A DNA stretch of 64,000 bases from Microcella sp. (GTDB lineage Bacteria; Actinomycetota; Actinomycetes; Actinomycetales; Microbacteriaceae), in assembly GCF_046293215.1 (NCBI RefSeq), contig NZ_JBKBPI010000011.1:1811-65810 (forward strand), given 5' to 3'. The number at the start of each line of letters is the position of its first letter. Within the stretch, counting starts at the first letter, position 1. Under the pieces are notes generated by a model. That model was not told the origin of the DNA. It saw only the letters and a program-made list of their open reading frames with translations, and made no database searches. The position numbers and the translations under genes are program-made. Of the stretch, positions 40,490 to 50,100 are shown in pieces.

Positions 40490-41341
40490 CTACCCGAGGT
40501 CGTCGGGGTGGCGGCCCGTGCGCTCGCCCGTCTCGAGTTGCGCGATCTCGGCCATGTCGGTGGCGGTGAGCTCCCAGTCGAAGATGTCGGCGTTCTCGGC
40601 CACGCGCTCGAGTGACGTCGACTTCGGAATCACGATGAGCCCCTGCTGCACGTGCCAGCGCAGCGCCACCTGGGCGGGCGTCTTGTCGTGCCGCGCCGCG
40701 ATGGCGTCGAGCACGTCGCGGTCGCGCGAGCCGACCTCGAGCACGCGGCCGCGGGCGAGCGGGCTCCAGCTTTCGACGGCGGCGCCCATCGCCGAGGCGG
40801 CGGCCCGAATTTCACGCTGCGGCAGCCACGGGTGCAGCTCGACCTGGTCGACGACGGGGGCGACCCCGGTCTCGTCGACGAGACGCTGCAGGTGGTGCGG
40901 TTCGAAGTTGCTGACGCCGATCGACCGCACGAGGCCCTGCTCGCGTAGGGCGATGAGCGCCTTCCACGCGTCGACGTAGCGGTCTTGGCGTGGCGCCGGC
41001 CAGTGAATCAGGTACAGGTCGAAGTATTCGAGGCCCGACGCGTCGAGCGCATCGAGGAACGCGGCTCGCGTCTCGTCGACCCCGTGTCGGTCGTTCCACA
41101 CCTTCGAGGTGACGTACAGCTCGTCGCGGGGCACCCCGCTCGCGCGCACGCCCTCGCCCACTTCTGCCTCGTTATTGTAGAGCGCCGCCGTGTCAACGTG
41201 GCGGTAGCCGAGCTCGATCGCGCCGGCGACGAGGTCGGCGGTCTGCTCCGCCGGAACCTTGTACACGCCGAGCCCCAGCTGCGGGATGCTCGTGCCGTCG
41301 GACAGCGTGATGCGCGGGGCGAGGGGCTCGGCTGCGGTCAT
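40490..41341 (-). CDS. aldo/keto reductase
   Basis: Start MTAAEPLAPRITLSDGTSIPQLGLGVYKV at 41341. DTAALYNNE, FDLYLIHWP and IPKS motifs. Confidence 0.9.
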   Translation of the reverse strand: MTAAEPLAPRITLSDGTSIPQLGLGVYKVPAEQTADLVAGAIELGYRHVDTAALYNNEAEVGEGVRASGVPRDELYVTSKVWNDRHGVDETRAAFLDALDASGLEYFDLYLIHWPAPRQDRYVDAWKALIALREQGLVRSIGVSNFEPHHLQRLVDETGVAPVVDQVELHPWLPQREIRAAASAMGAAVESWSPLARGRVLEVGSRDRDVLDAIAARHDKTPAQVALRWHVQQGLIVIPKSTSLERVAENADIFDWELTATDMAEIAQLETGERTGRHPDDLG

Positions 41342-41434
41342 GGGCCCAGTATTGCGAAGCGATCCGCGAGAACGCACAGCGAGCATCCAGCGCCCTGAGG
41401 AATTGATCCAGGATGCCCGTGGTTGGCTTCCAGC

Positions 41435-41998
41435 ATGGCTCACGTGATGATCGTCGTCGGATCCGTTCGCCCTGGCCGCATCGGCCTACCGATCGCTGAG
41501 TGGGTGCGTTCGCGCGTCGAGGGCGCGGGGCACGACGTCGACTTCGTTGATCTGAAGGAGCTGGCTTTGCCGTTCCTCGACGAGCCGCATCACCCGATCA
41601 AGCGCGACTACCAGCACGCGCACACGCGCGCCTGGAGTGCCCGCGTCGAGGCGACCGATGCGCTGATCTTCGTGACACCCGAGTACAACCACAGCTACTC
41701 GCCGGCGCTGAAGAACGCCATCGACTATCTGTACACCGAGTGGCAGGGCCGGCCCGTCGGGTTCGTCAGCTACGGCGGCATGTCGGGCGGTTCGCGGGGT
41801 GTGACGGCGCTCGAGCCGGTGCTGTCGACGGTGGGTCTGGTGAAGATCCCGACGGAGGTGAACCTGCCGGGCGCGAGCAAGCAGGTGGGCGACGGCGGGT
41901 TTGCCGCCGACGACCGCCAGACGAGCAGCCTGGATGCGCTGGTCGCGCAGCTGGTCGCCTACGGCGAGGCGCTGCGACCCGTGCAGGCCCGCCGCTAG
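41435..41998 (+). CDS. NAD(P)H-dependent FMN reductase
   Basis: MAHVMIVVGSVRPGRIG and FVTPEYNHSYSPALKNAIDY motifs. TTG 41423 is an alternative start. Confidence 0.85.
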   Translation: MAHVMIVVGSVRPGRIGLPIAEWVRSRVEGAGHDVDFVDLKELALPFLDEPHHPIKRDYQHAHTRAWSARVEATDALIFVTPEYNHSYSPALKNAIDYLYTEWQGRPVGFVSYGGMSGGSRGVTALEPVLSTVGLVKIPTEVNLPGASKQVGDGGFAADDRQTSSLDALVAQLVAYGEALRPVQARR

Positions 41999-42017
41999 CT
42001 GCAGGCCCGCCGCTAGC
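41982..42017. repeat. perfect 18-bp tandem duplication (TGCAGGCCCGCCGCTAGC x2)
   Basis: Copies at 41982-41999 and 42000-42017. The first copy holds the TAG stop of the + gene. The second holds the CTA (TAG) stop of the - gene. Confidence 0.9.
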
Positions 42018-43218
42018 TGATCGTCGCCACCGGCTCGGTGTCGGGTAGCGGCGAGGCGTCGCGCCCGCGCAGGTCGGGGTGCCACCGCACGAACAGTGCG
42101 CCGACGACGGTGGCGGCGAGCGCGAAGGCGATGGCCGTGTAGAAGCCGCCGACGGGGCCGAGGTCGTCGATGACGAAGCCGGCGATCGCGGAGCCGAGTG
42201 CCGCTCCGATGAGCTGCCCGGTGCCGAGCCAGCCGTACGCCTCGGCGGTCGCGCTGAACTTCACGCTGGCCGACACGATGGCGAACATCACGGCGAGCGC
42301 GGGCGCGATACCGATGCCGGCCACGATGAGGGCGATTGCGAGCCACCAGAACTCGAGGGCGAAGGGCGCCATGGCCATGCCGACGAAGATGATGAACAGG
42401 CGCCGGGTGAGGGCCCACGGGCCGATCGGCAGGTGCCCCATCGAGAGGCCTCCGACGAGTGAGGCGATGGCCCAGATGCCGAGAAGGAGTCCGGCTTCGG
42501 CTCCGCCCTCGCCGAAGACGGCAACGACGCCGACTTCGATGGCGGCGGCCGAGCCAATCATGAGGAAGCCGGTGATCGTGGCGAGCAACACGGCGCGGTT
42601 CTTCAGCACGACGCCGATGCGGTTCTTGCTCGGCGGGATGCGCACCTTGCCGACTTCGGGGCTCGAAATGAACCAGATGCCTCCGAGCACGAGGAAGCTG
42701 CCGGCGACCGCGATCGCCACAACGGGCGAGACCTGCAGGGCGAGGAACACGGTGACGACCGGGCCGCTGATCCAGATCAGCTCCTGTGCCGATGCATCGA
42801 GCGAGAACAGGGGAGTCAGCTGCTTCGACGTCACCATCTTTGGATAGATGGTGCGCACGGCCGGTTGAATCGGCGGGTTCGACAGACCCGTGATCAGGGC
42901 GACGAGCATGTAGCCCCAGAGGGGCAGGGGGGCAAAGGCGATGAGGGCGATGCCGGTGGCGCAAATGACGAGCGTCGTGATGAGAACCGGGCGCATCCCG
43001 AGTCTGCCCATCCAGCGGCTCGTGAGGGGGCCGGCGACTGCTTGCCCGACGCTCGTTGCGGCGAGCACGAGCCCCGCCGATCCGTACGAGTCGAAGATGC
43101 GCTCGATGTGAATGAGGAAGGCGAGCGAGAGCATGCCTGATGGCAGCCGCGCGACGAGCTGGGCGGAGATGATCCGCGCCACTCCACGGGTTTTCAACAG
43201 GTCGATGTAGCCGCTCAC
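42013..43218 (-). CDS. MFS transporter
   Basis: 401 aa, about 12 TM. Confidence 0.85.
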   Translation of the reverse strand: MSGYIDLLKTRGVARIISAQLVARLPSGMLSLAFLIHIERIFDSYGSAGLVLAATSVGQAVAGPLTSRWMGRLGMRPVLITTLVICATGIALIAFAPLPLWGYMLVALITGLSNPPIQPAVRTIYPKMVTSKQLTPLFSLDASAQELIWISGPVVTVFLALQVSPVVAIAVAGSFLVLGGIWFISSPEVGKVRIPPSKNRIGVVLKNRAVLLATITGFLMIGSAAAIEVGVVAVFGEGGAEAGLLLGIWAIASLVGGLSMGHLPIGPWALTRRLFIIFVGMAMAPFALEFWWLAIALIVAGIGIAPALAVMFAIVSASVKFSATAEAYGWLGTGQLIGAALGSAIAGFVIDDLGPVGGFYTAIAFALAATVVGALFVRWHPDLRGRDASPLPDTEPVATIS

Positions 43219-43360
43219 AAGAGGTCCAGCCTAGAGCCTCGGCGAGGGGCGAATTCTCGCGCCAGTTTTCGCGTTTTCCGCGCATCCCGTCCGCGTGTCG
43301 GAGGTGTCCGAGAAGCTGTGGATAAGCCCCACAAGTTATGCACACCTGTGGACGACACGC

Positions 43361-43408
43361 CCACTAGATGTAGGGGGTGATGTTTGTCAGTGCCCCGATA
43401 TATAGTGG
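43361..43408 (+). promoter_or_regulatory. two putative NrdR boxes
   Basis: CCACTAGATGTAGGGG (43361-43376) and CCCCGATATATAGTGG (43393-43408). They are mutually reverse-complementary variants, 32 bp start to start, in the AT-richest part of the nrd leader. Confidence 0.55.
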
Positions 43409-43505
43409 CCAGACCACGGCGCGGGGGCGCCGCGGTTGACCCGGTTTAACGGGCCGCAGACCCTCTCCACCACAGCCAGAAAACGCCGGACAACCGGCCC
43501 AACAC

Positions 43506-46010
43506 ATGACCCGCCGGGCGGGCCCGAATGGAGCACCAGTGAGCATCACGGTCGTGAAGCGCGACGGCAGCCGCGAGCCGTACGACGCGAACAAGATCAA
43601 CCTCGCCATCGAGCACGCCGCCGAAGGTCTTGACCCGAACATCACGTGGGTCACCCAGATCGCCAGCGAGCTCGAGTTGACCCTGTTCGACGGCATCACG
43701 ACCCAGCAGCTCGACGAGGCGGTGATCCAGGTCGCACTGCAGAACGTCAAAGATGACCCCGCGTTCGACCAGGTGGCCGCGCGACTGCTGCTCAAGACGA
43801 TCTACAAGCGCGTCCTCGGTGACTACACCGACGCCGACGACCTGAAGCGCCTGCACCGCGAGCACTTCGCCGCGACGATTCGCCGCGGTGTCGACGAGGC
43901 GCTGCTCGACCCGCGCTTCACGACCGGGCTGTTCGACCTCGACGCTCTCGCCGACGCTCTCGAGCCGGCGAACGACGAGCTGCTCAAGTACATCGGCGTC
44001 GTCACGCTCAACAACCGCTACGGCATCAAGGCCCGCAACGGCGAGCCCCTGGAGGTTCCGCAGTACTTCTGGATGCGCGTGGCGATGGGCCTGTCGCTCA
44101 ACGAGGCAAACCCCACCGAGCACGCCATCGCCTTCTACAAGAAGATGTCGTCGCTCGAGTACCTGGCGGCCGGCTCGACGCTGGTGAACGCCGGCACGAG
44201 CTACCCGCAGCTGTCGAACTGCTTCGTCATGGAGATGCACGACGACATCGAGCACATCGCCAAGAGCGTGCGCGACGTCATGTGGCTCACGAAGGGCACC
44301 GGCGGCATCGGCCTGTCGGTCACGAAGCTGCGCGCCCAGGGCTCGCCCATTCGCTCGAACAACACCACGTCGACGGGGCCGATCCCGTTCATGCACACGA
44401 TCGACTCGGTGCTGCGCGCGGTCAGCCGAGGCGGCAAGAAGTTCGGTGCCCTGTGCTTCTACATGGAGAACTGGCACATGGACTTCCCCGAGTTCCTCGA
44501 CCTGCGCCAGAACTCCGGTGACCCCTACCGCCGCACCCGCACGGCCAACACCGCCGTGTGGATCAGCGACGAGTTCATGAAGCGCGTGCAGAACGACGAC
44601 GACTGGTACCTGTTCGACCCGCTCGAGGTCAGTGACCTGAACGAGCTCTACGGAAAAGAGTTCTCGACGCGCTACGCCGAGTACGTGGCGATGGCCGAGC
44701 GTGGCGAGATCAAGATGTTCAAGAAGATCGGCGCGCGCGAGCAGTTCAAGCAGATCCTCATCTCGCTGCAGTCCACCAGCCACCCGTGGCTGACGTGGAA
44801 GGACACGATCAACAACCGTGCCATCAACAACAACACGGGCACGATCCACCTCTCCAACCTCTGCACCGAGATCTGCCTGCCGCAAGACCGCGACAACATC
44901 TCGGTCTGCAACCTGGCCTCGATCAACCTGAGCCGTCACTTCGCCGACGGCAAGGTCGACTTCGCGAAGATCGAAGAGAGCGCCAAGCTTGCCGTGCGCC
45001 AGCTCGACAACCTCATCGACATCACGGTGTCGAGCGTCGACGAGGCCGACCACGCGAACACGACGAACCGTGCGATCGGCCTCGGCGTGATGGGCTTCAC
45101 CGACCTGGTCGAGAAGCTCGGCTACTCGTACGACTCGGAGGAGGCGTTCGACCTGATCGACGAGATCATGGAGCACGTCTCGTACGCCGCCATCGAGGCC
45201 TCGGTCGAGCTCGCCAAGGAGCGCGGCGCCTACGACAACTTCGAGGGCAGCCGCTGGTCGCAGGGTCTCGTGCCCTTCGACACGATCGACCTCACCGAGG
45301 CCGACCGTGGCGTCGAGGTGCAGGTCAACCGCACCACCCGTCTCGACTGGGACGCCCTGCGCGAGAAGGTCAAGGGGGGCGTGCGCAACGCGACGCTCAT
45401 GGCGATCGCGCCGACGGCATCCATTGGTCTGGTTGCGGGCACGACGCCGGGTCTTGACCCGCAGTTCTCGCAGATCTTCAGCCGCTCGACCAGCTCGGGC
45501 AAGTTCCTCGAGGTGAACCGCAACCTCGTCGACGCGCTGAAGGCCCAGGGCCTGTGGGAGCGTACCCGCGAGGCGATTCTGCGCAGCCAGGGCGACATTC
45601 AGGGCATCACCGAGATTCCCGAAGACGTTCGGGCGTCGTACAAGACCAGCTTCCAGCTGTCGCCGTACGCCTTCCTCGAGGTCGCGGCCCGCGCCCAGAA
45701 GTGGATCGACCAGGCCATCAGCCGCAACATGTACCTCGAGACGCGCGACATCGACGACATGGTCGACATCTACTCGGCCGCGTGGAAGAAGGGCGTCAAG
45801 ACGACCTACTACCTGCACATGAAGCCGCGTCACACCGCCGAGCAGTCGACCGTCAAGGTCAACAAGTCGGAGGCGATCGGTGGCGGGCAGAAGAAGGGCT
45901 TCGGCGCCGCGAGCGGGTCGACCGCCGCCCCGAGCGCCGAGCCGGCCGCGGCTCCCGCGCCCGCGCGCAAGGGCTTCGGCTTCGGCGGCGTCGCGAAGGC
46001 GGGCGAGTAA
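43506..46010 (+). CDS. nrdA: ribonucleoside-diphosphate reductase alpha subunit (class I), lacking a C-terminal Cys pair in frame
   Basis: ATP-cone (VVKRDGSREPYDANKI) and catalytic core (NLCTEI, SNCFV, TTYYLH). GTG 43539 with GGAG upstream is an alternative start. TAA stop at 46008. Confidence 0.9.
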   Translation: MTRRAGPNGAPVSITVVKRDGSREPYDANKINLAIEHAAEGLDPNITWVTQIASELELTLFDGITTQQLDEAVIQVALQNVKDDPAFDQVAARLLLKTIYKRVLGDYTDADDLKRLHREHFAATIRRGVDEALLDPRFTTGLFDLDALADALEPANDELLKYIGVVTLNNRYGIKARNGEPLEVPQYFWMRVAMGLSLNEANPTEHAIAFYKKMSSLEYLAAGSTLVNAGTSYPQLSNCFVMEMHDDIEHIAKSVRDVMWLTKGTGGIGLSVTKLRAQGSPIRSNNTTSTGPIPFMHTIDSVLRAVSRGGKKFGALCFYMENWHMDFPEFLDLRQNSGDPYRRTRTANTAVWISDEFMKRVQNDDDWYLFDPLEVSDLNELYGKEFSTRYAEYVAMAERGEIKMFKKIGAREQFKQILISLQSTSHPWLTWKDTINNRAINNNTGTIHLSNLCTEICLPQDRDNISVCNLASINLSRHFADGKVDFAKIEESAKLAVRQLDNLIDITVSSVDEADHANTTNRAIGLGVMGFTDLVEKLGYSYDSEEAFDLIDEIMEHVSYAAIEASVELAKERGAYDNFEGSRWSQGLVPFDTIDLTEADRGVEVQVNRTTRLDWDALREKVKGGVRNATLMAIAPTASIGLVAGTTPGLDPQFSQIFSRSTSSGKFLEVNRNLVDALKAQGLWERTREAILRSQGDIQGITEIPEDVRASYKTSFQLSPYAFLEVAARAQKWIDQAISRNMYLETRDIDDMVDIYSAAWKKGVKTTYYLHMKPRHTAEQSTVKVNKSEAIGGGQKKGFGAASGSTAAPSAEPAAAPAPARKGFGFGGVAKAGE

Positions 46011-46012
46011 CC

Positions 46013-46093
46013 GTGGGCCCGCACGACACCGTCGACGGCTACGCCGTCCCGGTCGACCCGATGGACGACCTGTACTGCGACAGCTGCCAGTAA
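46013..46093 (+). CDS. 26-codon ORF VGPHDTVDGYAVPVDPMDDLYCDSCQ (R1-tail-like CX2C peptide or frameshifted NrdA C-terminus)
   Basis: GTG lies 2 nt after the nrdA TAA. All 26 codons end in G or C. The C-terminal CDSC resembles the R1 redox-shuttle tail. Confidence 0.5.
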   Translation: MGPHDTVDGYAVPVDPMDDLYCDSCQ

Positions 46094-46108
46094 CGACACC
46101 GTGACGAT

Positions 46109-46137
46109 CCCCGGATGCGCGCCCCGCGCATCCGGGG
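46109..46137 (+). other. perfect 13-bp stem / 3-nt loop hairpin between nrdA region and nrdB
   Basis: CCCCGGATGCGCG-CCC-CGCGCATCCGGGG. Confidence 0.6.
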
Positions 46138-46196
46138 ACACCAGACCCCCCGATCATTTCTTTCCCGCACCGCACTCACAGAAGGAAGCGCACACC

Positions 46197-47186
46197 ATGG
46201 GCATTCTCGGCACAGGAATTCAGGAGGGCCTCCTCCTGAAGCCCGTTACGTACAAGTGGGCGATGGACCTGTACGACCAGGCCGTTGCGAACACGTGGTT
46301 CCCCAACGAGGTTCAGCTTGGCGAAGACATCGCCGACTTCAAGAAGATGACCGACGAGGAGCGCCACGCGATCACGTTCCTCATGTCGTACTTCAACCCG
46401 AACGAGCTGCTCGTCAACAAGGCGCTCGCGTTCGGCGTCTACCCCTATGTCAAGGCTCCCGAGGCGCACCTGTACCTCGCGAAGCAGATGTGGGAGGAAG
46501 CCAACCACTGCATGAGCTTCGAGTACGTGCTCGAGACCTTCCCCATCGACCGCGCCGCCGCCTACGACAGCCACGTCGACGTGCCGTCGATGGCGCGCAA
46601 GGAGGAGTTCGAGGTCAAGTTCATCAAGCGCATGACCGAGGACACGCTCGACATCACGACGACCGAGGGCAAGCAGGACTTCATCCGCAACCTGGTCGCA
46701 TACAACGTGATCCTCGAGGGCATCTGGTTCTACTCGGGCTTCATGGTGGCGCTGTCGTTCCGCCAGCGGAACCTCCTGCGCAACTTCGGCTCGCTCGTCG
46801 ACTGGATCGTGCGCGATGAGTCGCTGCACCTGAAGTTCGGCATCAACCTGATCCTCACGGTGCTGGAGGAGAACCCCGACCTGCAGACGCCCGAGTTCGC
46901 CGCCGAGATCCGCCAGATGATCCTCGACGCGGTCGAGATGGAGGAGGCGTACAACCACGACCTCCTGCCGAACGGCATCCTCGGGCTCAACGCCAACTAC
47001 ATCAACCAGTACGTGAAGTACCTGGCCGACCGTCGCCTGGAGGAGCTCGGCTTCGAGCCCGAGTACAACGTGGCGAACCCGGCCAAGTGGATGGCGACGG
47101 CGAACGACACCCTGCAGCTCGTGAACTTCTTCGAGTCGGTCAACACCTCCTACGAGGTGAACTCGGGCTCGAGCTCGCGCAGCTAG
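46197..47186 (+). CDS. nrdB: ribonucleotide reductase beta subunit, class Ic-like (Phe at radical-Tyr position)
   Basis: GAAGGAAG RBS and ATG 46197. Ligand motifs NPNELLV, WEEANHCMSF, ILEGIWFYSGF and RDESLH. Confidence 0.9.
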   Translation: MGILGTGIQEGLLLKPVTYKWAMDLYDQAVANTWFPNEVQLGEDIADFKKMTDEERHAITFLMSYFNPNELLVNKALAFGVYPYVKAPEAHLYLAKQMWEEANHCMSFEYVLETFPIDRAAAYDSHVDVPSMARKEEFEVKFIKRMTEDTLDITTTEGKQDFIRNLVAYNVILEGIWFYSGFMVALSFRQRNLLRNFGSLVDWIVRDESLHLKFGINLILTVLEENPDLQTPEFAAEIRQMILDAVEMEEAYNHDLLPNGILGLNANYINQYVKYLADRRLEELGFEPEYNVANPAKWMATANDTLQLVNFFESVNTSYEVNSGSSSRS

Positions 47187-47223
47187 TTCGGTGTCGTTGC
47201 TGTAGCGCTCGATCGAACCGCCC

Positions 47224-48975
47224 GTGTCTCAGCCGTGCGACCTCCTGTTCACGAACGGGGTCGTGTGGCGCGGCACGGGCGGTTCGTCGTTGCCGGAGCG
47301 CCTCGACGTCGCCGTCTCCGACGGCGTCATCGTCGCGGTGGATGCTGATCTCACGTCGCTGCGCGGCCCCGGCACCGAGGTTGTCGACCTGGCGGGCGGC
47401 CTGCTGCACGCCGGGTTTGTCGACGCGCACATCCACCCCATCCAGGGTGGGCTCGAGCGACTGTCGTGTGACCTGAGCGAGGGGTCATCGGTGTCGGAGT
47501 ACCTCGACATCGTCGTGCGCTTTGCCGCGGCGAACCCGCCTCGCGGCTGCGACGCTTCGCGCGCCTGGATCACCGGCGGCGGGTGGGCGATGAGCGCCTT
47601 CCCGGGTGGCGCGCCCACGGCCGCACTACTCGACGAGGTCGAGCCGATCCGCCCGGTGTTTCTGTACAACCGCGACCACCACGGCGCGTGGGTCAACTCG
47701 GCGGCGCTCGCCCTCGCGGGCATCACGGCCGACACCGCCGACCCGGCCGACGGCCGCATCGAGCGCCTTCCCGATGGCTCGCCGTCGGGAACGCTGCATG
47801 AGGGGGCCGCGAAGCTGGTCGCGGCGGTGGCGCCCGCCCCGACGCCCGACGAGGAGTTCGCGGCGCTGCTGGAGGCGCAGCGTTACGCCGTGAGCCTCGG
47901 CATCACCGGGTGGCACGACGCGATCGTCGGCGACTACTTCGGCGCCTCGGACACCGCGCTTGTCTACCGCCGCGCGCTGGATGAAACCCGCCTACTCATT
48001 GACGTCACCGGTGCGCTGTGGTGGGACCGCGAGCGCGGGGTCGAGCAGGTGCCCGAGTTGGTCACTCGGCGTGAAGCGCTGGTCGATGCGTTGGGCACGG
48101 ACGCCCGCTTCCGCCTGCCCGCGGTGAAGATCATGGCCGACGGTGTGGTCGAGAACGGCACGGCGTCGATGCTGGAGCCGTACGTGGGCGACGTGGCGAG
48201 CCCCGAGCATCCCCGCGGCATCGCCTTCGTCGGCGGGCAGGAGCTGCTCGACGCGATTGTCGCTCTCGACGCGGCGGGCTTCTCGGCCCACGTGCATGTG
48301 ATCGGCGACCGCGCGGTCCGCGACGCCCTCGACGGCTTTGCGGCCGCGCGCGAGCGCAACGGCTGGAGCACCCCCGGCCGCCACCACCTCGCGCACGTGC
48401 AGTTCGTGCATCCCGACGATGTGGCGCGCTTCGCCGCGCTCGGCGTGACGGCGAACATGCAGGCGTTGTGGGCGTGCAACGAGCCGCAGATGCGCGAGCT
48501 GACGGTGCCGATCGTGGGGCCGCAGCGCGCCGCGACCCAGTACCCGTTCGCGTCGATCCTGCGTCAGAAACCGGTGGGCGCGCCGGTGTCCGCCGACCCG
48601 CGCTTGTGCGCCGGCAGCGACTGGCCGGTGTCGACCCCCGACCCGTGGCAGGCAATCCACGTGGCGGTGAATCGCACGCTGCCAGCGAATGACCCCGAGC
48701 ACGACCCGGAGCCGCTGCTGCCGCACGAGGCGCTGACGCTGGCTGACGCCCTGCAGGCGTACACGGCCGGCTCCGCGTGGATCACGGGCCGCGGCCCCGC
48801 CGATCCGGTGGTGGATGCGCGTGGTCGCGTCGCGCGCGGCGCGGGCGTTATCGAGGTGGGCGCCGTCGCGGACCTCGCCGCGACCGACCGCGACCCGTTC
48901 TCGGCAGGCGCGGCGAGCATCCACGAAACCCGCAACGTCGGCACCTGGGTCGCCGGCCGCCGCGTGTTCGGCTGA
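47224..48975 (+). CDS. amidohydrolase-family metal-dependent hydrolase
   Basis: 583 aa. GLLHAGFVDAHIHPIQGG is an N-terminal HxH metal motif. Confidence 0.85.
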   Translation: MSQPCDLLFTNGVVWRGTGGSSLPERLDVAVSDGVIVAVDADLTSLRGPGTEVVDLAGGLLHAGFVDAHIHPIQGGLERLSCDLSEGSSVSEYLDIVVRFAAANPPRGCDASRAWITGGGWAMSAFPGGAPTAALLDEVEPIRPVFLYNRDHHGAWVNSAALALAGITADTADPADGRIERLPDGSPSGTLHEGAAKLVAAVAPAPTPDEEFAALLEAQRYAVSLGITGWHDAIVGDYFGASDTALVYRRALDETRLLIDVTGALWWDRERGVEQVPELVTRREALVDALGTDARFRLPAVKIMADGVVENGTASMLEPYVGDVASPEHPRGIAFVGGQELLDAIVALDAAGFSAHVHVIGDRAVRDALDGFAAARERNGWSTPGRHHLAHVQFVHPDDVARFAALGVTANMQALWACNEPQMRELTVPIVGPQRAATQYPFASILRQKPVGAPVSADPRLCAGSDWPVSTPDPWQAIHVAVNRTLPANDPEHDPEPLLPHEALTLADALQAYTAGSAWITGRGPADPVVDARGRVARGAGVIEVGAVADLAATDRDPFSAGAASIHETRNVGTWVAGRRVFG

Positions 48976-48996
48976 GCGCACGGATAGGGTGGCGGC

Positions 48997-50100
48997 GTGG
49001 ACGGCGCGCTGAACCCCGCACTCGCGCAGCGCCTCGTCGACCAGGTGGCGGCATCGGTCGCGCACAACGTCAACCTCATGGATGCCGACGGCGTGATCAT
49101 CGCCTCGCTCGACCGGTCGCGCCTCGGCCTGACGCACTGGGCGGCGGCTCGCGCCGCCGCGGAGCGCGCCGCGGTCAGGGTGCACGGCGAGAACGCCCGC
49201 GACGGCGTGCGGCCCGGCGTGAACGCCCCGCTGATCGTCGATGGCGCCGTGCTTGGCGTGGTCGGCGTGACCGGCGACCCCGACGAGGTCGAGGAGGTCG
49301 CGACGCTGCTGTTGCTCGCGCTGCGGCTGATCCTCGACGCGGAGTCGGAACAGGATGCGCGCACCGCCCGCGACGCGATCGCGCGCGACGTCATCGCCGG
49401 GCTGGTTGCCGGCGCGCTCGGCCCGGCAGAACTGGCCGCCCGTTCCGCTGCGGCAGGGGGGATGCTCGACGCGCCTTTTCGCATCATCGTCGCGGTGGAC
49501 CCGCGGCAGCTGGGCGCGGAGGCGTCGGGACCGGCCACCCCTCCCGCCGCTGCCGCGCGACTGATCCGTTCCGCGCGTGCGGTCGGCTCGGGCTTCAGCG
49601 TCGTCGACCTCGACGGGCTGTGGATCGTCGTCGGCGGCGCGACCGCGGACCGCATCGAGATGTTCCGCCACCGCGCACGTGAAGAAGGTGCGAGCATCCT
49701 CGATTCGGGCGAGCTGGCAAGCCTCGAGGCGCTCGGTGACGCCGCTCGTCGCCTGCGCGCGCTGCTTGCGGTTCCCGCCCTGATCCCACCGGGCGGCTCC
49801 AGCCTCGATGACCTGGAGTCGGAGGCGATCGTCGCAGGAATGACCTCGGCGGCACGCCGAGAGCTCGTCACACGCGTGCTCGGCGGCCTGTCGGCGAGTG
49901 ACCGACACACACTCACCGCGCTGGCGGCGGCCGGCGGCTCAGTGTCGCGAGCGGCCGTTATGCTCGACCGCCACCGCAACACGGTCGCGGCGCGCGTGGA
50001 CCGCATCCAGTCGCTCGGCGGATGGTCCGTCACCGAACCGGGTGCACTCGCGCGCATCACGCTCGCGCTTCTCGCCGAGCGGGCCGAGGACCATCCGTGA
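48997..50100 (+). CDS. cdaR: CdaR/SdaR-type sugar-diacid regulator
   Basis: N-terminal diacid-recognition-like segment (AQRLVDQVAASVAHNVNLMDADGVIIAS...VNAPLIVDGAVLGVVGVTGDPDEV). C-terminal PucR-type HTH (AAGGSVSRAAVMLDRHRNTV). Confidence 0.8.
   Translation: MDGALNPALAQRLVDQVAASVAHNVNLMDADGVIIASLDRSRLGLTHWAAARAAAERAAVRVHGENARDGVRPGVNAPLIVDGAVLGVVGVTGDPDEVEEVATLLLLALRLILDAESEQDARTARDAIARDVIAGLVAGALGPAELAARSAAAGGMLDAPFRIIVAVDPRQLGAEASGPATPPAAAARLIRSARAVGSGFSVVDLDGLWIVVGGATADRIEMFRHRAREEGASILDSGELASLEALGDAARRLRALLAVPALIPPGGSSLDDLESEAIVAGMTSAARRELVTRVLGGLSASDRHTLTALAAAGGSVSRAAVMLDRHRNTVAARVDRIQSLGGWSVTEPGALARITLALLAERAEDHP

What the first reader, a model, noticed from the sequence alone, without database searches (positions are those of the whole stretch)
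45840..46093. NrdA has no C-terminal cysteine pair in frame; a CX2C R1-tail-like sequence is encoded out of frame immediately after its stop
Seen:
- After the TTYYLH region, nrdA runs through a Gly/Ala/Pro-rich linker (KKGFGAASGSTAAPSAEPAAAPAPARKGFGFGGVAKAGE) containing no Cys.
- It stops at TAA (46008-46010).
- Two nt later a GTG opens a 26-codon ORF, VGPHDTVDGYAVPVDPMDDLYCDSCQ, in the -1 frame.
- All 26 codons of that ORF end in G or C. The nrdA frame is equally G/C3-biased right up to its stop, so both frames look translated.

Established: class I R1 proteins re-reduce their active site via a Cys pair on a flexible C-terminal tail. Examples are E. coli C754/C759 and the eukaryotic terminal CX2C.

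Inference, three options:
- A single-base assembly error or a genuine frameshift mutation.
- Programmed -1 frameshifting or termination-reinitiation.
- A stand-alone diffusible tail peptide, which would be novel.
Basis: partly seen in the sequence, partly recalled or inferred. Interest (0 to 1): 0.75.

Follow-up and report, generated by a model that had tools for sequence, protein, structure and literature searches.

The report
Ribonucleotide reductase redox tail split off
In this Microcella genome and in 79 of 80 related Microbacteriaceae genomes, the cysteine-bearing tail that normally ends the large subunit of ribonucleotide reductase is encoded as its own 20-52-codon gene between nrdA and nrdB, so the enzyme is probably re-reduced by a separate mini-peptide rather than a tethered tail.

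Summary
nrdA (43506-46010) ends ...RKGFGFGGVAKAGE with no Cys after TTYYLH. A 26-codon ORF (46013-46093, VGPHDTVDGYAVPVDPMDDLYCDSCQ) follows in the -1 frame.

It is not an assembly error and not programmed frameshifting:
- 79 of 80 Microbacteriaceae species genomes have the same arrangement: a Cys-less NrdA, then a 20-52-codon ORF ending Y-x-V-P-x-D-P-M-D-x-L-x-C-[DE]-S-C-Q, then nrdB.
- Each small ORF has its own start codon (67 ATG, 12 GTG, 1 TTG), usually overlapping the nrdA stop, and a Shine-Dalgarno-like sequence.
- Its frame relative to nrdA varies: -1 in 66, in-frame in 10, +1 in 4.
- The core is under purifying selection (omega about 0.17), and the invariant Ser uses both TCN and AGY codons.

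The nearest NrdA relatives outside this clade (Propionibacteriales, Dermacoccaceae, unnamed assemblies) carry the same motif fused in frame (...VDGAACPVDPMERLQCDSCQ). A tree places all split genes in one clade. This is therefore a single, fixed gene fission of the R1 redox tail in a class Ic-type RNR.

Function as a reductant acting in trans is inferred, not shown. I found no description in the literature. NCBI calls many of these ORFs but mislabels them "subunit beta".

The parts
43506..46010 (+). nrdA, the class I RNR large subunit (ATP-cone, all-alpha and barrel domains), 834 aa. It has the catalytic Cys residues but no C-terminal Cys pair.
   Evidence: ORF and translation. Pfam PF03477, PF00317 and PF02867. 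NCBIfam NF005101 matches profile positions 1-800 of 822, so the last 22 positions are missing. The best PDB hit is 5im3.
45867..46007 (+). Retained low-complexity linker of NrdA (Gly/Ala/Pro/Ser-rich). It holds two [KR][KR]GFG motifs: KKGFG at 45891-45905 and RKGFGFGG at 45966-45989.
   Evidence: Translation. The motif is conserved in all 120 close homologues and is also present in the linkers of fused relatives. Its function is unknown.
45996..46007 (+). Purine-rich, Shine-Dalgarno-like stretch (AAGGCGGGCGAG) in the last four nrdA codons, 6-17 nt upstream of the small-ORF start.
   Evidence: Across 80 loci the median anti-SD duplex energy upstream of the small-ORF start is -7.8 kcal/mol. Only 2.3% of random positions inside nrdA reach that value.
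46013..46093 (+). Small gene encoding the detached R1 redox tail: 26 codons, GTG start, TAA stop, product VGPHDTVDGYAVPVDPMDDLYCDSCQ.
   Evidence: The 97%-identical M. alkaliphila locus L001 has ATG at the same codon. Orthologous ORFs occur in 79 of 80 genomes. A profile search found 1868 database proteins at E<=10, and the best 120 are all 25-58 aa stand-alone calls.
46040..46090 (+). Conserved 17-residue core YAVPVDPMDDLYCDSCQ. Y, V, P, D, P, M, C, S, C and Q are invariant in the split clade. The Cys pair CxxC sits at residues 22 and 25.
   Evidence: Alignment A1. Entropy at codon positions 1/2/3 is 0.33/0.28/0.95, pN/pS is 0.26 and omega is about 0.17, and Ser is encoded by both TCN and AGY. 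The alignment to fused tails is gapless, with P, D, P, C, S, C and Q invariant.
46108..46138 (+). 14-bp G+C-rich hairpin just after the small-ORF stop, with no U-tract. It is lineage-specific and probably not part of the core system.
   Evidence: Fold of 46090-46200: -37.9 kcal/mol, z = -3.9. A comparably strong structure is present in only 19 of 75 orthologous intergenic regions.
46197..47186 (+). nrdB, the RNR small subunit, 329 aa, of the class Ic (Chlamydia R2c) type.
   Evidence: Pfam PF00268. The best PDB hit is 1syy, with Phe aligned to Phe127 (HCMSF versus HTHTF) and Glu aligned to the first metal ligand Glu89.

Best explanation
**What it is.** This is a gene fission. [quoted passage not shown] The cut lies inside the disordered linker, after the second GFG motif. 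That tail carries the Cys pair that re-reduces the active-site disulfide after each turnover and is itself reduced by thioredoxin or glutaredoxin.

**How it is expressed.** The small gene is translated from its own start codon (GTG 46013 here). Translation is coupled to termination of nrdA and helped by a Shine-Dalgarno-like sequence in the last nrdA codons, so about one peptide is made per NrdA.

**How it most likely works.** The 26-aa product (20-52 aa in relatives) probably does what the tethered tail does, but in trans:
1. Its C-terminal C-x-S-C-Q dithiol enters the NrdA active site and reduces the catalytic disulfide.
2. It leaves as a disulfide.
3. A cellular redoxin re-reduces it.

The invariant Y-x-V-P-x-D-P-M-D-x-L segment would be the docking determinant that replaces the tether.

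**Shown versus inferred.**
- Shown: the separate conserved ORF, its start signals, purifying selection on the peptide, homology to fused tails, and a single derived origin.
- Inferred: translation in vivo, the redox-shuttle function, and whether the peptide diffuses freely or stays bound non-covalently to NrdA, for example at the retained GFG linker.
For: 1. All 120 closest NrdA proteins (83-100% identity) end ...GFGFGG..K..E without Cys.
2. Of 80 species-level genomes, 79 have a 20-52-codon ORF directly after nrdA that ends YxVPxDPMDxLxC[DE]SCQ-stop.
3. Starts are ATG in 67, GTG in 12 and TTG in 1. The start overlaps the nrdA stop in 52 of 80 and lies 4-43 nt downstream in the rest. The upstream SD-like sequence is in the top 2.3% of positions.
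4. The frame relative to nrdA varies (66/10/4), so only independent initiation explains all cases.
5. The core shows peptide-level selection: third-position entropy is about 3 times that of positions 1 and 2, omega is about 0.17, and Ser switches between codon families. GC3 switches frame exactly at the junction.
6. The tail is homologous to fused tails. The nearest fused NrdA proteins end ...VDG[AV]ACP[IV]DP[QM]ERLQC[DE]SCQ. The window's DGYAVPVDPMDDLYCDSCQ matches P0442's DGAACPVDPMERLQCDSCQ at 14 of 19 positions without gaps. The NCBIfam NrdA equivalog lacks its last 22 profile positions here.
7. Fused loci L081 and L082 have nrdA followed directly by nrdB with no small ORF.
8. In an NJ tree of the NrdA barrel, all split genes form one clade and every fused gene falls outside it.
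9. Background: the class I tail Cys pair shuttles electrons from redoxins to the active site (PMC4078304, PMC9669993). A separately encoded Cys-tail subunit works in the split class II enzyme NrdJa/NrdJb (PMC4520616).
Against: - There is no direct evidence of translation. I had no proteomics or ribosome profiling, and the exact window peptide is not a called gene in the 15-billion-protein collection.
- There is no biochemical evidence that a free 26-mer can reduce NrdA or be reduced by thioredoxin.
- One genome, L075 (a Homoserinimonas metagenome assembly), has Cys-less NrdA and no small ORF within 7 kb. So either the gene can sit elsewhere or the enzyme can do without it.
- The split peptide differs from fused tails at conserved positions: Cys to Val at -14, a new invariant Tyr at -16, and ER to D[DEL]. 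This could mean a shifted function.
- The AlphaFold2 run was uninformative, with tail pLDDT about 30.
Confidence: 0.75

Rival explanations
1. Programmed -1 ribosomal frameshifting, or stop-codon bypass, joins the tail to NrdA, so the functional protein is still a fused R1.
For: In the window and in 66 of 80 loci the small ORF is in the -1 frame. Here that frame is open for 153 codons upstream.
Against: - The frame relation is 0 in 10 loci and +1 in 4.
- In 22 of the 66 -1 loci a stop closes the -1 frame within 10 nt of the nrdA stop.
- The window has no X XXY YYZ heptamer in the last 460 nt of nrdA, and only 1 of 66 loci has one.
- The hairpin lies after the small ORF, not at the junction, and is not conserved.
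- The long open -1 frame is expected from nrdA's GC3 of 0.94-0.96, and it has no coding signature of its own.
- Every locus has an in-frame start codon with an SD-like sequence.
Confidence: 0.02
2. It is a sequencing or assembly indel, or a recent inactivating frameshift, in this genome only.
For: A single-base indel would be the simplest explanation for one genome seen in isolation. One database protein (P0088) is indeed a frame-shifted gene call that runs from nrdA into the small ORF.
Against: The same arrangement occurs in 79 of 80 independently assembled species genomes, including complete chromosomes of Clavibacter and Leifsonia. The junction sequences and frames differ between them. All 120 closest NrdA proteins end without Cys.
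Confidence: 0.01
3. The ORF is conserved DNA or RNA (a regulatory or structural element between nrdA and nrdB) and is not translated.
For: There is no expression evidence. The exact peptide is not annotated for this genome. Some loci carry structured RNA in or next to the ORF.
Against: - Variation is concentrated at third codon positions, omega is about 0.17, and the invariant Ser is encoded by both TCN and AGY codons.
- The N-terminal part varies freely in length (20-52 codons), yet a start codon and an open frame are always kept.
- The encoded sequence is homologous to a protein segment of fused relatives.
- Rfam finds nothing.
Confidence: 0.04
4. The peptide is translated but has taken on a different job from re-reducing the active site. 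Examples would be a redox-sensing regulator of RNR, a helper for assembly of the Mn/Fe cofactor of the class Ic NrdB, or a competitor of the NrdB tail.
For: - The split clade has specific invariant changes: a new Tyr at -16 and loss of the first Cys of the CP.DP motif.
- The NrdB partner is the unusual class Ic type.
- One genome lacks the ORF (L075).
- NrdA keeps a conserved GFG linker although nothing is attached to it.
Against: - The terminal QC[DE]SCQ is unchanged from the fused tails, whose role is established for class I enzymes.
- NrdA has no other Cys pair that could take over, so the enzyme would lack a physiological reductant route.
- Fused relatives have the same operon partner, an nrdB directly downstream of nrdA.
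- Tight translational coupling to nrdA fits a stoichiometric partner.
Confidence: 0.15

Closest known systems
Fused C-terminal redox tail of the nearest NrdA relatives (Arachnia, Propionibacteriaceae, Aeromicrobium, Barrientosiimonas and unnamed assemblies; P0241, P0242, P0400-P0449)
   Same: Same motif at the extreme C-terminus, P-x-D-P-x4-Q-C-[DE]-S-C-Q-stop, preceded by VDG. It follows a low-complexity linker containing RRGFG motifs, in the same nrdA-nrdB operon.
   Different: There the tail is in frame with NrdA. It has a third Cys (CP[IV]DP) and ER where the split peptide has D[DEL]. Here it is a separate gene with its own start codon, an invariant Tyr, and Val in place of the first Cys.
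Split class II RNR NrdJa/NrdJb of Pseudomonas aeruginosa (PMC4520616)
   Same: The catalytic body and the polypeptide carrying the redox-active C-terminal cysteines are encoded by adjacent genes. The second product mediates thiol-disulfide exchange and is needed in vivo.
   Different: That enzyme is class II (AdoCbl-dependent), and NrdJb is a sizeable folded piece of the ancestral chain that binds NrdJa tightly at 1:1. Here the enzyme is class I (Ic), and the detached piece is only the disordered tail, down to 20 residues.
E. coli NrdA C754/C759 and the eukaryotic R1 CX2C tail (PMC4078304, PMC6382339; Zhang et al. 2007 as cited there)
   Same: A Cys pair at the very C-terminus on a flexible segment, with CX2C spacing as in eukaryotes. 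The presumed role is as a shuttle between redoxins and the active-site disulfide.
   Different: In those enzymes the tail is always covalently part of R1.
Fragmented NrdA of Aeromonas phage Aeh1 (PMC3045599)
   Same: A class I nrdA split into two genes whose products must reassemble.
   Different: That split was caused by a mobile endonuclease gene inside the catalytic domain. Both pieces are large folded fragments, and the split is not at the tail.

Membership tests
Class I RNR R1 C-terminal redox tail | Cys pair (CX2C or CX4C) within the last few residues of the polypeptide | tested here: met
   The peptide ends C22-D-S-C25-Q-stop. This is invariant in 80 of 80 small ORFs.
Class I RNR R1 C-terminal redox tail | Sequence homology to the tails of orthologous NrdA proteins | tested here: met
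   The alignment to fused tails is gapless over 19 residues, with 14 of 19 identical to P0442 and P, D, P, C, S, C and Q invariant.
Class I RNR R1 C-terminal redox tail | Covalently attached to the R1 barrel through a flexible linker | tested here: not met
   A stop codon and a new start codon separate them in the window and in 79 of 80 genomes, and the frame relation varies.
Class I RNR R1 C-terminal redox tail | Reduces the active-site disulfide and is reduced by thioredoxin or glutaredoxin | not testable with these tools
   This needs an enzyme assay with the synthetic peptide.
Programmed -1 ribosomal frameshift site | Slippery heptamer X XXY YYZ in the zero frame at the junction | tested here: not met
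   There is none in the last 460 nt of nrdA. Only 1 of 66 -1 loci has one.
Programmed -1 ribosomal frameshift site | Conserved -1 relation and an open -1 frame across the junction | tested here: not met
   The relation is -1 in 66, 0 in 10 and +1 in 4. In 22 of the 66, the -1 frame is closed within 10 nt.
Split RNR of the NrdJa/NrdJb type | Catalytic subunit and Cys-tail-bearing polypeptide encoded by adjacent, co-oriented genes | tested here: met
   The small ORF starts 2 nt after the nrdA stop. The arrangement is conserved.
Split RNR of the NrdJa/NrdJb type | Class II (AdoCbl-dependent, no NrdB), with the second subunit a folded fragment of the ancestral chain | tested here: not met
   An NrdB partner is present and is of the class Ic type. 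The detached product is 20-52 aa with no domain match in Pfam or NCBIfam.
Class Ic RNR (Mn/Fe R2c, Chlamydia type) | Phe at the position of the radical Tyr, and Glu as the first metal ligand in NrdB | tested here: met
   In the alignment to 1syy, HCMSF aligns with HTHTF and NPNELL with STAESL. The metal content itself was not tested.

The most novel reading that the evidence does not exclude
A free dithiol peptide of 20-50 residues, co-translated with NrdA, is the dedicated electron shuttle of a class I (Ic) RNR across a whole bacterial family. This would be the first case in which the R1 redox tail works as a diffusible or non-covalently docked micropeptide, in effect a minimal unfolded redoxin specific for one enzyme. 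The clade-specific invariant Tyr/Val-Pro segment would have evolved as the docking element that replaces the tether.
Probability: 0.6. Interest if true: 0.8.

Novelty: new variant of a known kind. Interest (0 to 1): 0.7.

Why it matters
The C-terminal Cys tail of class I and II RNRs is essential for physiological turnover. It is disordered and hard to study, and the RNR literature I read describes it as part of the catalytic subunit (PMC9669993, PMC4078304).

A natural system in which the tail is a separate peptide of about 26 residues would show that the tether is dispensable. It would also give a clean handle on open questions:
- How does the tail find and enter the active site?
- Which residues besides the cysteines matter?
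- Which redoxin recognises the tail?
- Does tail supply limit or regulate dNTP synthesis?

The peptide can be synthesised, titrated, cross-linked and co-crystallised.

There are practical consequences too:
- The family includes plant pathogens (Clavibacter, Leifsonia xyli) in which an essential, family-specific micropeptide could be a target.
- Annotation needs correcting. NCBI labels these 25-36-aa products 'ribonucleotide-diphosphate reductase subunit beta', and some genomes, including this window's organism, appear not to have the gene called at all.

Tried and rejected
- **Family searches.** Pfam and NCBIfam scans of three peptide variants found no family. An Rfam scan of 41000-49000 and of the L002 junction found nothing meaningful.
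- **Frameshifting.** A scan for slippery heptamers and a test of frame conservation led me to reject it.
- **Hairpin at 46108-46138.** I considered it as a frameshift stimulator or a conserved attenuator and rejected both. It lies after the small ORF and is strong in only 19 of 75 loci.
- **Redoxin gene next to the operon.** There is none. The neighbours are an MFS transporter and an amidohydrolase.
- **Structure prediction.** I ran AlphaFold2 on P0088, a database gene call that accidentally fuses NrdA to the peptide, with a 50-sequence alignment, to see whether the tail docks. The model was poor (mean pLDDT 58.9, tail about 30) and uninformative.
- **Literature.** Seven full-text searches were run. 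None turned up a description of a detached class I tail. Subscription-only papers are not covered.
- **Taxon names for the fused representatives.** P0241, P0242 and P0331 could not be named. Names came only from the hits.
Full report
**1. The observation**

The window is about 70% G+C. Its nrdA gene matches Microcella sp. at 100%. nrdA runs from 43506 to 46010 and encodes 834 aa. After the conserved TTYYLH it continues for 63 residues...KKGFGAASGSTAAPSAEPAAAPAPARKGFGFGGVAKAGE, without any Cys, and stops at TAA 46008-46010. Two nucleotides later, GTG 46013 opens 26 codons, VGPHDTVDGYAVPVDPMDDLYCDSCQ, ending at TAA 46091-46093 in the -1 frame.

All 26 codons end in G or C. GC3 is 0.96 in the nrdA frame up to 46007 and 1.00 in the new frame from 46013. 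Upstream of 46013 the new frame has GC3 of only 0.50-0.64. The coding signal therefore switches frame exactly at the junction. The long open -1 frame upstream (back to 45554) is a by-product of nrdA's GC-rich third positions.

**2. Not an artefact**

The 120 closest NrdA proteins in the 5.8-billion-protein database are 83-100% identical and come from Microcella, Diaminobutyricimonas, Diaminobutyricibacter and many metagenomes. They all end ...GFGFGG..K..E, or a close variant, without Cys. The single exception, P0088, is a frame-shifted gene call that runs into ...FAYEVPIDPMDDLHCESCQ. That was the first sign that the small ORF exists in other species.

**3. The small ORF is a conserved, separately initiated gene**

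I fetched 80 species-representative genome loci from Microbacteriaceae (Microcella, Leifsonia, Clavibacter, Rhodoglobus, Salinibacterium, Humibacter, Amnibacterium, Pontimonas, Glaciihabitans and others). In 79 of them, as in the window, a 20-52-codon ORF lies between nrdA and nrdB and ends Y-x-V-P-x-D-P-M-D-x-L-x-C-[DE]-S-C-Q-stop.

The counts below are over 80 small ORFs, meaning those 79 loci plus the window:
- **Start codon:** ATG in 67, GTG in 12, TTG in 1. In M. alkaliphila (97% identical NrdA) an ATG occupies the position of the window's GTG.
- **Position of the start:** it overlaps the nrdA stop (ATGA/GTGA, or TAATG/TGATG) in 52 of 80. In the rest it lies 4-43 nt downstream, often after a plain GGAG.
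- **Ribosome-binding signal:** the upstream sequence pairs with the anti-Shine-Dalgarno sequence at a median of -7.8 kcal/mol, a value reached by only 2.3% of random positions inside nrdA.
- **Frame relative to nrdA:** -1 in 66, in-frame behind the stop in 10, and +1 in 4.
- **Room for frameshifting:** in 22 of the 66 -1 cases a stop closes the -1 frame within 10 nt of the nrdA stop. Only 1 of the 66 has an in-phase X XXY YYZ heptamer, and the window has none in 460 nt.

Programmed frameshifting therefore cannot be the general mechanism. Independent initiation, coupled to nrdA termination, fits every locus.

**4. Selection acts on the peptide**

Across 74 distinct DNA versions of the 17-codon core, entropy at codon positions 1/2/3 is 0.33/0.28/0.95. 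Pooled pN/pS is 0.26, giving omega of about 0.17. The invariant Ser is encoded by both TCN and AGY codons. The N-terminal part varies freely in sequence and length. A profile of the peptides finds 1868 database proteins at E<=10, and the best 120 are all stand-alone products of 25-58 aa.

NCBI already annotates many of them, oddly named 'ribonucleotide-diphosphate reductase subunit beta' (for example Leifsonia shinshuensis at 25 aa and Microcella sp. at 29 aa). Pfam and NCBIfam have no model for the peptide. The exact peptide of this window is not a called gene in the collection.

**5. It is the R1 tail**

An exhaustive HMMER search with NrdA against 1.84 billion cluster representatives shows what the outgroups look like:
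- Nearest non-split relatives end ...AVKVCPIDPAERAQCDSCQ (P0241, 60% identity), ...GQACPTDPAERALCESCQ (P0242) and ...VDGSACPIDPQERLQCESCQ (P0331, 71%).
- More distant class I NrdA proteins end ...C[SR][IL]D[DN]P.CE[AS]CQ.

A further search seeded with P0331 recovered fused forms from Arachnia, Propionibacteriaceae, Aeromicrobium, Barrientosiimonas and unnamed assemblies. All end ...VDG[AV]ACP[IV]DP[QM]ERLQC[DE]SCQ after a linker with RRGFG motifs.

The split peptides and the fused tails align without gaps over the last 19 residues. P, D, P, C, S, C and Q are invariant across both groups, and the window peptide matches P0442 at 14 of 19 positions. Consistently, the NCBIfam equivalog for this NrdA (NF005101) matches only profile positions 1-800 of 822.

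Two fused loci, L081 and L082, have nrdA followed directly by nrdB with no small ORF. In a neighbour-joining tree of 226 barrel residues, all 80 Cys-less NrdA sequences (79 with the small ORF, plus L075) form one clade and all fused sequences lie outside it. The tree is crude and has no bootstrap support. The simplest history is one fission in the ancestor of this clade, inside the disordered linker after the second GFG motif, which was then fixed.

**6. Context**

- NrdA has an ATP-cone, and the catalytic cysteines are present in the motifs SNCF, NLCTE and SVCNL.
- NrdB (46197-47186) is closest to the Chlamydia trachomatis R2c structure 1syy. It has Phe at the radical-Tyr position and Glu as the first metal ligand, which are the class Ic hallmarks.
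- The flanking genes are an MFS transporter and an amidohydrolase. No redoxin gene is adjacent.

**7. Mechanism**

It is established that the class I tail Cys pair reduces the active-site disulfide and is in turn reduced by thioredoxin or glutaredoxin (PMC4078304, PMC9669993). In the split class II enzyme of P. aeruginosa, the separately encoded NrdJb supplies those cysteines and is required in vivo (PMC4520616).

By homology and operon position, the most likely role of the peptide is the same shuttle, acting in trans. Translational coupling would give roughly one peptide per NrdA. The clade-specific invariant residues (Tyr at -16 and Val at -14 in place of Cys) plausibly strengthen docking now that the tether is gone.

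I cannot tell whether the peptide diffuses freely or stays bound, for instance to the conserved GFG linker that NrdA has kept. Translation and function are inferred, not shown.

Counter-indications are the lack of expression data, one genome without the ORF (L075, a metagenome assembly nested inside the split clade), and the sequence changes relative to fused tails. An AlphaFold2 attempt gave a poor model and no information on docking.

**8. Novelty and verdict**

Seven full-text searches were run, and none found a description of a class I RNR whose redox tail is a separate gene. Recent surveys of RNR extensions describe class I tails only as part of the alpha subunit (PMC9669993). The ORF is known to gene callers but is mislabelled.

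I rate this a new variant of a known kind: a split RNR with an in-trans redox tail. My confidence by claim:
- About 0.9 that it is a real, conserved, fission-derived small gene.
- About 0.6-0.7 that it works as the in-trans reductant.
- 0.75 for the explanation as a whole.

Interest is 0.7. It should surprise RNR specialists, and it makes tail function directly testable with a synthetic peptide.

Noticed in passing
window 46108-46138: A 14-bp G+C-rich hairpin (UCCCCGGAUGCGCG / CGCGCAUCCGGGGA) sits right after the small-ORF stop, with no U-tract. It is shared with M. alkaliphila (L001) and analogous hairpins occur in Clavibacter, Amnibacterium, Humibacter and Naasia, but it is absent from most loci, where the small ORF abuts nrdB by 0-4 nt. 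It may be an mRNA processing or stability element that sets the NrdA:NrdB ratio.
   Followed up: partly
window 43362-43377 and 43394-43409: Two AT-rich palindrome-like boxes (CACTAGATGTAGGGGG and CCCCGATATATAGTGG) lie about 32 bp apart, roughly 100-140 bp upstream of the nrdA start. By eye, and from my memory of the consensus, they resemble tandem NrdR boxes. This was not tested.
   Followed up: no
window 46197-47186: NrdB is a class Ic-type (R2c) small subunit, with Phe in place of the radical Tyr and Glu as the first metal ligand. Its best PDB hit is C. trachomatis 1syy. The split-tail clade is therefore an actinobacterial lineage of Chlamydia-type Mn/Fe RNR.
   Followed up: partly
L002 4115-4256; L065 2348-2492; L079 4082-4241: In three genomes (and in protein P0167) the small ORF is 47-52 codons long. 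A conserved insert of about 70-90 nt follows its ATG (ATGCGCGCTGGAGCTATGGAGATYGC...). The insert has hairpins showing compensatory changes and is read through in frame as MRAGAMEIA.... It has no Rfam match and no other copy in the fetched loci or the window. It is an unexplained structured element.
   Followed up: partly
L075 (Homoserinimonas sp. metagenome assembly), whole 7-kb locus: This is the only one of the 80 genomes with a Cys-less NrdA and no tail ORF. nrdB starts 6 nt after the nrdA stop, and no C.[ST]C-terminal ORF occurs anywhere in the locus. The locus is nested inside the split clade in the tree. It could reflect loss, relocation or an assembly problem.
   Followed up: partly
window 45891-45905 and 45966-45989: Two [KR][KR]GFG motifs in the NrdA linker are conserved in all split NrdA proteins and also in the linkers of fused relatives. 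NrdA keeps about 60 residues of 'tail-less' linker ending in GFGFGG. The function is unknown; the linker could be a docking site for the detached peptide or for a redoxin.
   Followed up: no
database proteins P0124-P0240 (e.g. P0186, P0240): NCBI and UniProt records name the 25-36-aa tail peptides 'ribonucleotide-diphosphate reductase subunit beta'. That is a misnomer, because they derive from the alpha subunit. The exact peptide of this window is not present as a called gene.
   Followed up: partly
window 47150-47183 versus 46040-46051: The NrdB C-terminus (...NTSYEVNSGSSSRS) and the peptide family consensus ((E)Y(E)VP) share a Y-E-V triplet around a conserved Tyr. This is probably chance, but the Tyr is the clade-specific invariant residue of the split peptide.
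   Followed up: no
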